Positions 42,601-45,600 of a DNA stretch of 64,000 nt are shown here, in pieces (the first letter of the stretch is position 1; every line of letters starts with the position of its first letter). Source of the stretch: Escherichia coli (GTDB taxonomy: Bacteria > Pseudomonadota > Gammaproteobacteria > Enterobacterales > Enterobacteriaceae); assembly GCF_016903815.1 (NCBI RefSeq), contig NZ_CP069973.1. One strand, given 5' to 3'. The position numbers were made by a program.

Positions 42601-45600
42601 GAGGAAACCGCGAGAATGCAGCATATTCAGGCTGTGCAAAGTGAGCAGAGTCTGATTGCGACGAAGCGCCAGCGCGCGGAATAGCGGCGGATTTTCAGTT
42701 TTATTGCACACCAGCGTACCACCTGCGCGTGGGTCTTTACTGGAGCCGACAAAGACCGGGATATCGCTGCGTACTGCGGGTAGCAACGTTGCCGGATGCA
42801 GTACTTTTGCACCAAAAGTTGCCATCTCTGCCGCTTCGGCAAACGCGATTTCATCAATGCGTTTTGCTGCGGAAACCACGCGTGGATCGGTGGTGTAGAT
42901 GCCCGGGACGTCGGTCCAGATATCAACACGAGATGCGTGTAAAGCCTCCGCCAGCAAGGCTGCCGTATAATCGCTGCCTCCACGGCCAAGCGTCGTTGTC
43001 CGACCTTTATTTTCGCTACCGATAAATCCCTGGGTGATCACTAAGCCTTCATTGAGGCGTGGGAGCAGCTGCAGCGCGGCCAGTTCCGCCAGCGCGGCTA
43101 CATCTGGCTCTGCACGACCAAATCGGTCGTTGGTACGCATCACTTTACGTACATCAAACCACTGTGCCTGAACATCGCGTTCGCGCAGGATTTCGACAAA
43201 CAGCAGGGTCGACATCAGCTCGCCGTGGCTGACCAGTTCATCTGTCAGCGCCGGAGACGTTGCCAGCGCCGCCGCTTCTGCCAGAACAGTAATGTTCTCC
43301 AGCAGACGTTCAATCTCTTCACGGATAACGTTCGGGTAACGCAGACGTTCCAGAATGGCAAACTGGATATTGCGGATTGCGTCGAGTTTTTCGAATCGCT
43401 CGCCAGGTTCCAGTCCTTCAGCTAAAGCGACCAGCAGATTAGTGATACCAGCAGAAGCCGAGAGGACAACTAAACGTACGTTGGCATCAGAAAGCACAAT
43501 ATCAGCGCTGCGGTTCATGGCGTCAAAATCAGCTACGCTGGTACCGCCAAATTTGGAGACAACAATTTCAGACATAACTACCTCGTGTCAGGGGATCCAT
43601 TTTCAGCCTTGGCACAAGGGAAGAGCGGAAGACGGGTGGGCGCAGAGCGATACTTCGCTACTATTTTCACCCAGAAGTGCTCCACCACTTGCGAAACGCC
43701 CGACTGCGAACGCTTCTGGTGACAACCCAGGGGATTCAGCCCCTGTAGCCGATGATGAACGTGGCCAGCCGTTCAATCACCTCGGCGATGCACCCCCTCA
43801 GGTGTTATCACAGGACTGGCTCCTCCAACACCGTTACTTGGGCAACGCGCCTCTTCTGGCCTGCGCTAGCGCAGGTAGTACATTTATAAATAAAGGGTGA
43901 GTGGGGCGGTTGTCAACGATGGGGTCATGCGGATTTTTCATCCACTCCTGGCGGTCAGTAGTTCAGCTAATAAATGCTTCACTGCGCTAAGGGTTTACAC
44001 TCAACATTACGCTAACGGCACTAAAACCATCACATTTTTCTGTGACTGGCGCTACAATCTTCCAAAGTCACAATTCTCAAAATCAGAAGAGTATTGCTAA
44101 TGAAAAACATCAATCCAACGCAGACCGCTGCCTGGCAGGCACTACAGAAACACTTCGATGAAATGAAAGACGTTACGATCGCCGATCTTTTTGCTAAAGA
44201 CGGCGATCGTTTTTCTAAGTTCTCCGCAACCTTCGACGATCAGATGCTGGTGGATTACTCCAAAAACCGCATCACTGAAGAGACGCTGGCGAAATTACAA
44301 GATCTGGCGAAAGAGTGCGATCTGGCGGGCGCGATTAAGTCGATGTTCTCTGGTGAGAAGATCAACCGCACCGAAAACCGCGCCGTGCTGCACGTAGCGC
44401 TGCGTAACCGTAGCAATACCCCGATTCTGGTTGATGGCAAAGACGTTATGCCGGAAGTCAACGCGGTGCTGGAGAAGATGAAAACCTTCTCGCAAGCGAT
44501 TATTTCCGGTGAGTGGAAGGGTTATACCGGCAAAGCAATCACTGACGTAGTGAACATCGGGATCGGCGGTTCTGACCTCGGCCCATACATGGTGACCGAA
44601 GCACTGCGTCCGTACAAAAACCACCTGAACATGCACTTTGTTTCTAACGTCGATGGGACTCACATCGCGGAAGTGCTGAAAAAAGTAAACCCGGAAACCA
44701 CGCTGTTCCTGGTAGCATCTAAAACCTTCACCACTCAGGAAACCATGACCAACGCCCATAGTGCGCGTGACTGGTTCCTGAAAGCGGCTGGTGATGAAAA
44801 ACACGTTGCGAAACACTTTGCGGCGCTCTCAACCAACGCCAAAGCCGTTGGCGAGTTTGGTATTGATACCGCCAACATGTTCGAGTTCTGGGACTGGGTC
44901 GGTGGTCGTTACTCTTTATGGTCAGCGATTGGCCTGTCGATTGTTCTCTCCATCGGCTTTGATAACTTCGTTGAACTGCTTTCTGGCGCACACGCGATGG
45001 ACAAGCATTTCTCCACCACGCCTGCCGAGAAAAACCTGCCTGTACTACTGGCGCTGATTGGCATCTGGTACAACAATTTCTTTGGCGCGGAAACTGAAGC
45101 GATTCTGCCGTATGACCAGTATATGCACCGTTTCGCGGCGTACTTCCAGCAGGGCAATATGGAGTCCAACGGTAAGTACGTTGACCGTAACGGTAACGTC
45201 GTGAATTACCAGACTGGCCCGATTATCTGGGGTGAACCAGGCACTAACGGTCAGCACGCGTTCTACCAGCTGATCCACCAGGGAACCAAAATGGTACCGT
45301 GCGATTTCATCGCCCCGGCTATCACCCATAACCCGCTCTCTGATCATCACCAGAAACTGCTGTCTAACTTCTTTGCTCAGACCGAAGCGCTGGCGTTTGG
45401 TAAATCCCGCGAAGTGGTTGAGCAGGAATATCGTGATCAGGGTAAAGATCCGGCAACGCTTGACTACGTGGTGCCGTTCAAAGTGTTCGAAGGTAACCGC
45501 CCGACCAACTCCATCCTGCTGCGCGAAATCACTCCGTTCAGCCTGGGTGCGTTGATTGCGCTGTATGAGCACAAAATCTTTACTCAGGGCGTGATTCTGA

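What the first reader, a model, noticed from the sequence alone, without database searches (positions are those of the whole stretch)
43600..43860. lysC lysine riboswitch intact
The conserved L-box aptamer is recognisable in the roughly 300-nt lysC leader. This is routine, but it is the only cis-acting RNA element I can positively identify in the window.
Basis: partly seen in the sequence, partly recalled or inferred. Interest (0 to 1): 0.15.

Follow-up and report, generated by a model that had tools for sequence, protein, structure and literature searches.

The report
Known E. coli lysC lysine riboswitch
This is the well-studied lysine-sensing RNA switch in front of the E. coli lysC (aspartokinase III) gene, base-for-base identical to the laboratory K-12 version, so it is real and intact but ordinary.

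Summary
Rfam's Lysine riboswitch model (RF00168) matches window 43863..43667 on the minus strand over its full length: 99.5 bits against a cut-off of 30, E = 3e-25. The match lies in the 306-nt leader of lysC (CDS 43575..42226, minus strand).

The whole transcribed leader (43881..43576) is 100% identical to E. coli K-12 MG1655, the strain in which this riboswitch was characterised. It is present in 5425 of 5426 complete E. coli genomes, and RefSeq already annotates it as "riboswitch".

An alignment with 32 other Enterobacterales lysC leaders shows compensatory changes in P2, P2a, P3 and the L2-L3 loop-loop contact. Two mutually exclusive helices downstream of the aptamer are strongly conserved:
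- an anti-sequestor that overlaps P5 and P1;
- a sequestor, CCUUGUG/CACGAGG, that covers the Shine-Dalgarno sequence.

There is no intrinsic terminator. The published Rho-loading C-rich tract and the RNase E Site1 (UCUU) are both present.

The mechanism comes from the literature. Lysine binding turns lysC off through translation block, RNase E cleavage and Rho-dependent termination.

Novelty: already known. Interest is low.

Minor extras: a covarying 5' hairpin abuts P1 and lies outside the Rfam model, and the rrn boxA elements are further cis-acting RNA elements in the window.

The parts
43911..43916 (-). lysC promoter -35 hexamer TTGACA (positions -35..-30)
   Evidence: Read from the sequence. 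Its position is inferred from the transcription start implied by published numbering. The simple promoter scan did not report it because the -10 is weak.
43888..43893 (-). Putative -10 hexamer TTATTT, 17 bp after the -35 (positions -12..-7)
   Evidence: Sequence and spacing to the inferred start site. This is inference only. The single intergenic difference from K-12 (43902, A vs G, position -21) lies in the spacer.
43881..43881 (-). Transcription start (+1, G) of lysC mRNA; the 5' UTR is 306 nt
   Evidence: Derived from 'G309 coincides with the AUG' in PMC10946432. Verified because G349, U354-357, A364 and Site1 250-253 (UCUU) all fall on matching bases.
43860..43875 (-). 5' hairpin CCUGCG-CUAG-CGCAGG (+7..+22) directly abutting P1; outside the Rfam model
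   Evidence: dG -9.3 kcal/mol, z = -3.2 in E. coli. A hairpin of dG <= -4 is present in 33/33 Enterobacterales leaders with differing sequences, 0-2 nt from P1 in 31 of 33, mean z about -2.6.
43667..43863 (-). Lysine riboswitch aptamer (five-way junction, P1-P5), +19..+215
   Evidence: RF00168, 99.5 bits, E = 3e-25, full model. 47/53 model pairs are canonical. On 33 leaders (window plus 32 other Enterobacterales) 90% of cells are paired vs about 45% when partners are slid, and 20 pairs show compensatory changes. The L2-L3 contact covaries.
43853..43859 (-). P1 5' strand CCAGAAG (+23..+29)
   Evidence: Rfam alignment. 100% paired in 33 sequences, but nearly invariant.
43671..43677 (-). P1 3' strand CUUCUGG (+205..+211)
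43670..43692 (-). Anti-sequestor (anti-P1) 5' half, +190..+212; overlaps the P5 3' strand, J5/1 and P1 3' strand
   Evidence: RNAalifold consensus of the alignment. 96.8% of cells are paired vs 56-82% slid. P = 0.68 in the unconstrained single-sequence ensemble and 0.00 when the aptamer is enforced.
43614..43635 (-). Anti-sequestor 3' half, +247..+268; contains the C-rich tract, Site1 and the sequestor 5' strand
43611..43650 (-). C-rich, G-poor tract (+232..+271: 20 C, 7 G; +241..+265: 56% C, 12% G), the published rut (Rho loading) region near +240
   Evidence: Composition computed. Function taken from PMC10946432.
43629..43632 (-). RNase E cleavage Site1, UCUU (+250..+253)
   Evidence: Position from PMC10946432; sequence confirmed.
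43613..43619 (-). Sequestor 5' strand CCUUGUG (+263..+269)
   Evidence: 97.4% of cells are paired with the SD strand in 33 leaders vs 30-59% slid.
43581..43587 (-). Sequestor 3' strand CACGAGG (+295..+301), including the Shine-Dalgarno GAGG (43581-43584)
   Evidence: The extended motif CUGACACGAGG is conserved upstream of the start codon in almost all Enterobacterales leaders.
42226..43575 (-). lysC coding sequence (449 aa, lysine-sensitive aspartokinase III); AUG at 43573-43575
   Evidence: NF006570, 768 bits. One amino-acid difference from K-12, V159I. Published Rho termination points G349, U354-357 and A364 map to 43533, 43525-43528 and 43518.

Best explanation
Window 43576-43881 (minus strand) is the 5' leader of the E. 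coli lysC mRNA and carries the classical lysine (L-box) riboswitch, an OFF switch. Without lysine, the 3' part of the aptamer (P5 3' strand, J5/1, P1 3' strand; +190..+212) pairs with +247..+268 as an anti-sequestor. This ties up the CCUUGUG segment and the C-rich tract and leaves the Shine-Dalgarno sequence free, so lysC is translated. When lysine binds the five-way junction, P1 and P5 are locked and the anti-sequestor cannot form. CCUUGUG (+263..+269) then pairs with CACGAGG (+295..+301) and hides the Shine-Dalgarno sequence. The freed C-rich tract with Site1 (UCUU, +250..+253) becomes accessible to Rho and RNase E. The outcome is three layers of repression: blocked translation initiation, Rho-dependent termination at and after the start codon, and RNase E-initiated decay.

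Shown here: aptamer membership, sequence identity with the characterised K-12 element, the existence and conservation of the two alternative helices, absence of an intrinsic terminator, and presence of the C-rich tract and Site1.

Taken from the literature and not testable here: lysine binding, translational repression, RNase E cleavage and Rho termination.
For: Aptamer and gene:
- RF00168 gives a full-length hit of 99.5 bits, E = 3e-25.
- lysC lies immediately downstream on the same strand.

Identity and conservation:
- +1..+306 is 100% identical to K-12 MG1655. The adjacent 1350-nt CDS has 22 differences, so about 5 would be expected in 306 nt at that rate.
- The region is found in 5425/5426 complete E. 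coli genomes, at >= 99% identity in 5418, and is annotated 'riboswitch'.

Comparative structure (33 Enterobacterales leaders):
- The OFF-state structure (aptamer plus sequestor) has 90.1% of cells paired vs 45-47% with slid partners. The aptamer helices carry all 20 pairs with compensatory changes (130 cells vs 54 +/- 7 in shuffles).
- The L2-L3 kissing loop is 91.5% paired, and both outer pairs covary.
- 20 of 20 related loci score as RF00168 at 68-104 bits.

Expression platform:
- RNAalifold recovers the anti-sequestor and the sequestor as alternatives that share CCUUGU.
- The two helices are 96.8% and 97.4% paired across species, vs 56-82% and 30-59% when slid.
- Single-sequence ensembles: unconstrained, the anti-sequestor has P = 0.68 and P1 0.00. 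With the aptamer enforced, the anti-sequestor is 0.00, the sequestor about 0.33, and SD unpaired probability falls from 0.29 to 0.10.
- No terminator-like hairpin with a U-run occurs on the minus strand in the leader.
- The tract +241..+265 is 56% C and 12% G, and Site1 is UCUU.

Literature:
- Translation control and RNase E are described in the account of Caron et al. 2012 given in PMC10946432.
- Evidence for Rho: rut near +240, termination at G309/G349/U354-357/A364, and the deltaSite1 effect.
- The Rho termination score for lysC is 6.1 (PMC5499598).
- The aptamer-platform overlap in E. coli lysC is larger than in B. subtilis (PMC13273304).
Against: Nothing contradicts the identification. 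The weak points concern mechanism only.

1. The platform helices show no compensatory (two-sided) changes, only wobble-compatible one-sided ones, and the shuffle controls are uninformative (500/500). The comparative support for them is therefore conservation plus compatibility, not covariation. Those bases are also constrained by the SD, rut and RNase E functions.

2. Nearest-neighbour folding does not form P1 without constraints, and it favours the non-P1 fold by about 15-19 kcal/mol. With 36 nt of coding sequence included, it does not discriminate SD accessibility (0.44 vs 0.54).

3. In my ON-state model, Site1 sits in an internal loop of the anti-sequestor (unpaired probability 0.98). The paper describes it as sequestered in a double-stranded region.

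4. The related loci were selected with a pattern that fixes 22 aptamer bases, so invariance at those columns is by construction.

5. Caron et al. 2012 and Rodionov et al. 2003 could not be read directly.
Confidence: 0.97

Rival explanations
1. It is a lysine riboswitch of the Bacillus type, acting through a ligand-induced intrinsic terminator rather than through SD sequestration, Rho and RNase E.
For: The aptamer class is the same as in B. subtilis lysC (RF00168). A terminator-like hairpin was reported at 43646-43659.
Against: That hairpin-plus-T-run is on the + strand, antisense to the leader. On the lysC strand the same hairpin (+223..+236) is followed by CUCUGCGCCC, not a U-run. The scan found 2 terminator-like sites against 0.7 +/- 0.8 expected, so they are not significant. 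In vitro transcription gives full-length product regardless of lysine unless Rho is added (PMC10946432).
Confidence: 0.01
2. The aptamer is a decayed or non-functional relic, and lysC is controlled only at the promoter and by feedback inhibition of the enzyme.
For: 8 of the 49 most conserved Rfam consensus positions differ, and 6 of 53 model pairs are not canonical pairs in this sequence (3 mismatches, 1 G-G, 2 at alignment gaps). DNA elements at the promoter also contribute to regulation (Liao and Hseu 1998, as cited).
Against: The sequence is identical to the K-12 leader, for which lysine-dependent regulation is published. There are zero substitutions in 306 nt vs 22 in the CDS. The leader is at >= 99% identity in 5418 genomes. 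The deviations from consensus are shared by all Enterobacterales orthologues, which still score 68-104 bits and show compensatory changes.
Confidence: 0.01
3. The signal belongs to something on the + strand, for example the 181-aa ORF at 43355..43900 or an antisense RNA, and the riboswitch match is incidental.
For: The mechanical ORF list contains 43355..43900 (+) overlapping the leader.
Against: The covariance-model hit is strand-specific (minus) with E = 3e-25, and no + strand hit appears. The ORF is antisense to a bona fide lysC CDS and leader and is not annotated in RefSeq. Compensatory changes preserve RNA pairing, not a reading frame.
Confidence: 0.005

Closest known systems
E. coli K-12 lysC lysine riboswitch (Caron et al. 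2012 PNAS; Bastet et al. 2017 NAR; Ghosh et al. 2024 RNA)
   Same: Every base of the transcribed leader, +1..+306. The same flanking genes, pgi divergent and yjbD/rluF downstream. The same landmarks: Site1 UCUU at +250-253, C-rich tract near +240, SD, and AUG at +307.
   Different: One base in the promoter spacer (window 43902, position -21, A vs G), and 22 mostly synonymous differences in lysC with one amino-acid change, V159I. Nothing in the RNA element differs.
Bacillus subtilis lysC L-box / lysine riboswitch (Sudarsan et al. 2003; Grundy et al. 2003; cited from my own knowledge)
   Same: The same aptamer family RF00168 with a five-helix junction and L2-L3 loop-loop contact, and the same logic (lysine turns an aspartokinase gene off).
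   Different: The expression platform differs. B. subtilis uses an intrinsic terminator/antiterminator. Here there is no terminator but an SD sequestor, a rut tract and an RNase E site. The alternative helix invades more of the aptamer (P5 and J5/1 as well as P1). P5 carries an 18-nt insertion relative to the Rfam consensus.
Other E. coli translational riboswitches coupled to Rho (thiM, thiC, thiB, ribB)
   Same: SD sequestration combined with Rho-dependent termination early in the gene (PMC5499598).
   Different: They have a different ligand and aptamer. lysC additionally exposes RNase E sites inside the riboswitch itself, called 'nucleolytic repression'.

Membership tests
Lysine riboswitch (Rfam RF00168, L-box) | Covariance-model score at or above the curated gathering threshold over the full model | tested here: met
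   99.5 bits vs 30, E = 3.1e-25, model positions 1-182 of 182, minus strand 43863..43667.
Lysine riboswitch (Rfam RF00168, L-box) | Five helices (P1-P5) around a central junction | tested here: met
   47/53 model pairs are canonical in this sequence and all five helices are present. Across 33 leaders, P1 is 100% paired, P2 87%, P2a 87%, P3 70% (its distal part is poorly aligned), P4 100% and the P5 base 99%. P2, P2a, P3 and P4 have compensatory changes.
Lysine riboswitch (Rfam RF00168, L-box) | Conserved junction/core nucleotides (AGAGGNGC, CGCCGA, UGUCA, UGGAG.GCU) | tested here: met
   41 of the 49 most conserved consensus positions are identical. Most deviations are A-to-G (for example GAAAGG becomes GAGGGG) and are shared by the Enterobacterales orthologues.
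Lysine riboswitch (Rfam RF00168, L-box) | L2-L3 loop-loop (kissing) tertiary contact | tested here: met
   L2 GCCA pairs with L3 UGGC. Across 33 leaders 91.5% of cells are paired vs 15-47% slid. Both outer pairs covary (GC/AU/UA/GU), with 18 doubly changed cells vs 6.1 +/- 1.8 in shuffles.
Lysine riboswitch (Rfam RF00168, L-box) | K-turn / loop-E motifs in P2 | not tested
   The internal loop between P2 and P2a is present in the Rfam alignment, but I did not score non-canonical motifs.
Lysine riboswitch (Rfam RF00168, L-box) | Location in the 5' leader, on the same strand, of a lysine biosynthesis or transport gene | tested here: met
   The aptamer ends 91 nt before the lysC AUG on the same strand. 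48 of the 120 pattern-selected loci from other genomes have a lysC homologue directly downstream.
Lysine riboswitch (Rfam RF00168, L-box) | Specific binding of L-lysine | not testable with these tools
   Inferred from 100% identity with the K-12 leader, for which lysine-dependent regulation is published.
E. coli-type (translational / RNase E / Rho) lysC expression platform | Mutually exclusive anti-sequestor and SD-sequestor helices | tested here: met
   Both helices are recovered by RNAalifold and share CCUUGU. They are 96.8% and 97.4% paired across 33 leaders. There are no compensatory changes, so the support is conservation and compatibility.
E. coli-type (translational / RNase E / Rho) lysC expression platform | No intrinsic terminator; C-rich rut tract and RNase E Site1 in the segment released in the OFF state | tested here: met
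   No minus-strand terminator-like site occurs in the leader. The tract +241..+265 is 56% C and 12% G, and Site1 is UCUU at +250-253. The function of these sites comes from PMC10946432.

The most novel reading that the evidence does not exclude
The enterobacterial lysC leader contains functional RNA beyond the Rfam aptamer that may not have been formally described. First, a 5'-terminal hairpin (window 43860-43875, +7..+22) abuts P1 in 33/33 Enterobacterales leaders while its sequence varies. It could stack on P1 to tune switching, or shield the 5' end from 5'-end-dependent RNase E attack. Second, the loop sequence UGCCAAGGCUGA between the sequestor strands is nearly invariant and is not explained by pairing alone. 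I could not view the published secondary-structure figures, so the hairpin may already be drawn there.
Probability: 0.2. Interest if true: 0.2.

Novelty: already known. Interest (0 to 1): 0.05.

Why it matters
It matters little as a discovery. This is one of the best-characterised riboswitches, and it is already annotated in RefSeq at this exact place. It is also a reminder that in E. coli this riboswitch acts through three layers (translation, RNase E, Rho) rather than through an intrinsic terminator. The comparative alignment shows that the whole expression platform, not just the aptamer, is conserved across Enterobacterales.

Tried and rejected
1. Unconstrained single-sequence MFE folding of the leader does not form P1 and mixes aptamer and platform. 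I dropped it as a structure model and used it only as a ligand-free reference.

2. Constrained ensembles including 36 nt of coding sequence (and the +345 case) did not separate SD accessibility between states. Transcripts ending at +309 or +321 did so modestly.

3. The simple sigma-70 scan did not find the lysC promoter. I placed the promoter from the published start-site numbering instead.

4. Reading Caron et al. 2012 (PMC3528543), Rodionov et al. 2003 (PMC290268) and Richards and Belasco 2021 (PMC10367942) failed because they are not held. The mechanism is therefore cited through PMC10946432, PMC5499598 and PMC13273304.

5. My first assignment of orthologue start codons from tblastn offsets was wrong for most loci. 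I redid it with an in-frame ATG plus SD search.

6. My first coordinate mapping of the window onto strain 7/2 assumed the wrong orientation. BLAST corrected it.

7. The shuffle-based covariation test on the two platform helices alone is uninformative because the columns are almost invariant.

8. The + strand terminator-like site at 43646-43659 and the + strand ORF at 43355-43900 were considered and rejected as antisense artefacts.
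Full report
OBSERVATION. A gathering-threshold Rfam scan of the whole window gives one cis-regulatory hit. It is RF00168, the Lysine riboswitch aptamer, at 43863..43667 on the minus strand: 99.5 bits (cut-off 30), E = 3.1e-25, all 182 model positions, not truncated. 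The strand was not stated, and the Shine-Dalgarno end of the element (43581-43587) lies outside the interval. In this sequence 47 of the 53 model base pairs are canonical, and 41 of the 49 most conserved consensus positions are identical.

CONTEXT. The ORF that begins 91 nt downstream of the aptamer on the same strand (43575..42226, 449 aa) is lysine-sensitive aspartokinase III: NCBIfam NF006570, 768 bits against a cut-off of 455. pgi starts divergently at 44100. The 611-bp stretch 43500-44110 is found in 5425 of 5426 complete E. coli genomes, at >= 99% identity in 5418. RefSeq annotates the same bases as 'riboswitch' between lysC and pgi.

COMPARISON WITH K-12. Against K-12 MG1655, the 1874 bp from the lysC stop codon to the pgi start have the same length and 23 differences. 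Of these, 22 lie in the CDS and cause one amino-acid change, V159I. One lies at window 43902. None lies in the transcribed leader. At the CDS rate about five differences would be expected in 306 nt, so the leader is under at least as strong constraint as the protein (inference).

NUMBERING AND ANATOMY. Ghosh et al. 2024 (PMC10946432) number from the transcription start and state that G309 coincides with the AUG. This puts +1 at window 43881 and gives a 306-nt UTR. The assignment is verified because their other landmarks fall on the right bases here: G349, U354-357 (UUUU), A364, and Site1 250-253 (UCUU). Upstream lie a perfect -35 TTGACA (43916-43911) and, 17 bp later, a weak -10 TTATTT (43893-43888). 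The consensus scan missed this promoter, so it is inferred. The single difference from K-12 is at -21, in the spacer.

The leader then reads, 5' to 3':
- a hairpin at +7..+22 (43875-43860);
- the aptamer at +19..+215 (43863-43667), with P1 formed by CCAGAAG (+23-29) and CUUCUGG (+205-211);
- a small hairpin at +223..+236;
- a C-rich, G-poor tract (+241..+265: 56% C, 12% G) that contains Site1;
- CCUUGUG at +263-269;
- a loop;
- CACGAGG at +295-301, which contains the SD GAGG;
- AUG at +307.

RELATED SEQUENCES. Of these, 48 have a lysC homologue directly downstream on the same strand. Thirty-two of the 48 are Enterobacterales, with LysC identity of 73-90%. All 20 Enterobacterales loci that I scanned score as RF00168 at 68-104 bits.

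I aligned the 32 leaders with the window sequence as alignment A1 and counted the E. coli structures on it.
- The OFF-state structure (aptamer plus sequestor) has 90.1% of cells paired, vs 45-47% when partners are slid by 1-3 columns.
- The aptamer helices supply all 20 pairs with changes on both sides, covering 130 cells vs 54 +/- 7 in shuffles. These are concentrated in P2, P2a and P3.
- The L2-L3 loop-loop contact that characterises this class (GCCA with UGGC in E. coli) is 91.5% paired, and both outer pairs covary.

One caveat applies. The selection pattern fixes 22 aptamer columns, so their invariance is by construction.

EXPRESSION PLATFORM. No hairpin-plus-U-run exists on the lysC strand of the leader, so this is not a Bacillus-type terminator switch. 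RNAalifold on the part of the alignment that lacks the P1 5' strand predicts a long interrupted helix between +190..+212 and +247..+268. On the part that begins after P1 it predicts CCUUGU paired with ACGAGG. The two helices share CCUUGU and are therefore mutually exclusive. The first also consumes the P5 3' strand, J5/1 and part of P1, so it is incompatible with the lysine-bound aptamer.

Across the 33 leaders the helices are 96.8% and 97.4% paired, against 56-82% and 30-59% for slid partners. All variation is one-sided and wobble-compatible, with no compensatory double changes, and the shuffle control is uninformative. The motif CUGACACGAGG upstream of the start codon and the segment GCUCUUCCCUUGUGCCAAGGCUGA are almost invariant from Escherichia to Budvicia.

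Single-sequence ensembles agree in direction:
- Unconstrained: anti-sequestor 0.68, P1 0.00, sequestor 0.00.
- Aptamer enforced: anti-sequestor 0.00, sequestor about 0.33, and SD unpaired probability 0.10 instead of 0.29.

The discrimination disappears when 36 nt of coding sequence are added. In my ON model, Site1 sits in an internal loop rather than in a duplex as the paper words it.

MECHANISM. The sequence evidence fits the published model, and I adopt it.
- Without lysine, the anti-sequestor (anti-P1) forms, the SD is free, and the rut/RNase E segment is held in the stem.
- With lysine, P1 forms, the SD is sequestered, and translation initiation is blocked.
- RNase E cleaves the exposed sites, as described for Caron et al. 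2012.
- Rho loads on the C-rich tract near +240. With NusG it terminates at G309, with further termination sites at G349, U354-357 and A364.
- The ChIP-based Rho termination score for lysC is 6.1 (PMC5499598).
- A 2026 covariation study notes that the aptamer-platform overlap in the E. coli lysC variant is larger than in the B. subtilis model (PMC13273304). This matches the overlap I see with P5 and J5/1.

Ligand binding and the three outputs are not testable with these tools. They are inferred from 100% identity with the K-12 element.

COMPARISON, NOVELTY, VERDICT. The element passes every membership feature of RF00168 that I could test: score, five helices, core nucleotides, L2-L3 contact and gene context. 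It also has the features of the E. coli-type platform. It is the same element as in K-12, not merely a relative, so it is already known and annotated. Interest is 0.05.

The only mildly new observations are two. A 5' hairpin abuts P1 and is present in 33 of 33 leaders with different sequences (mean z about -2.6). The loop of the sequestor is also very highly conserved. Both lie outside the Rfam model, but I could not check them against the published figures.

SIDE CLAIM. Rfam agrees, even at E <= 0.5. However, the rrn operon in the window carries boxA antitermination sequences at 11187-11199 and 13107-13119. REP-type elements also occur in the malE-malF and lamB-malM spacers.

Noticed in passing
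window 43860-43875 (minus strand; +7..+22 of lysC mRNA): A hairpin CCUGCG-CUAG-CGCAGG directly abuts P1 and lies outside the Rfam model. An equivalent hairpin (dG <= -4) exists in 33/33 Enterobacterales lysC leaders with different stem sequences, 0-2 nt from P1 in 31 of them, with mean z about -2.6 vs shuffles. It could stack on P1 or protect the 5' end. I did not check it against published figures.
   Followed up: partly
window 11187-11199 and 13107-13119 (+): Matches to boxA (TGCTCTTTAACAA, one exact and one with a single mismatch) lie in the leader and the 16S-23S spacer of the rrn operon (16S 11331-12872, tRNA-Glu 12958-13033, 23S 13227-16130, 5S 16225-16340). By established knowledge these are cis-acting antitermination RNA signals, so the riboswitch is not the only cis-acting RNA element in the window. 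The sub-threshold Ysr197 hit at 10975-11209 is the same rrn leader.
   Followed up: partly
window 53513-53682, 57742-57911, 62418-62464: naRNA4/CssrE (REP-type) hits lie in the malE-malF and lamB-malM intergenic regions and at one further site. Only 57742-57812 passes the gathering score. They are palindromic REP elements, not examined further.
   Followed up: no
window 45758-45906 (minus strand): An Rfam STnc430 (enterobacterial sRNA) hit of 85 bits starts 9 bp after the pgi stop codon on the opposite strand. Sub-threshold V_AS5/Ysr49/CssrA hits lie at 46354-46529 (+), just after yjbE.
   Followed up: no
window about 40413-40418; 32257-33605; 34767-40564: From 27497 to 64000 (the part compared) the window is 99.99-100% identical to E. 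coli strain 7/2. It lacks that strain's 3.9-kb ISEcp1-blaCTX-M-14-IS903B-lamB' insertion next to rluF (junction at window 40413-40418). It shares an IS1397 copy between yjbB and pepE and a sorbose (sor) PTS operon between pepE and rluF. From my own knowledge K-12 lacks both; this was not checked here.
   Followed up: partly
L125 (E. coli strain WB61, NZ_CP020025.1), locus 3445-5487: In one of the 5426 E. coli genomes the match to the leader stops at the Shine-Dalgarno sequence (window 43583). An ISEcp1 element with a gene fragment, about 1.9 kb in all, lies between the riboswitch and lysC. ISEcp1 is known to carry an outward promoter (my own knowledge), so lysC there may escape riboswitch control.
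   Followed up: partly
A1 columns about 220-350 (P5 loop); e.g. L047 (Cedecea), L064 (Budvicia), L091, L042, L055, L027, L006, L097: Several Enterobacterales lysC riboswitches carry insertions of about 20 to 125 nt in the P5 loop, and some have an extra hairpin between the sequestor strands. E. coli itself has an 18-nt P5 insertion relative to the Rfam consensus.
   Followed up: no
window 43646-43659 (+): A terminator-like hairpin with a T-run lies on the + strand. It is the reverse complement of the small platform hairpin at +223..+236 of the lysC leader. There are 2 such sites in the region vs 0.7 +/- 0.8 expected, so it is probably chance.
   Followed up: yes
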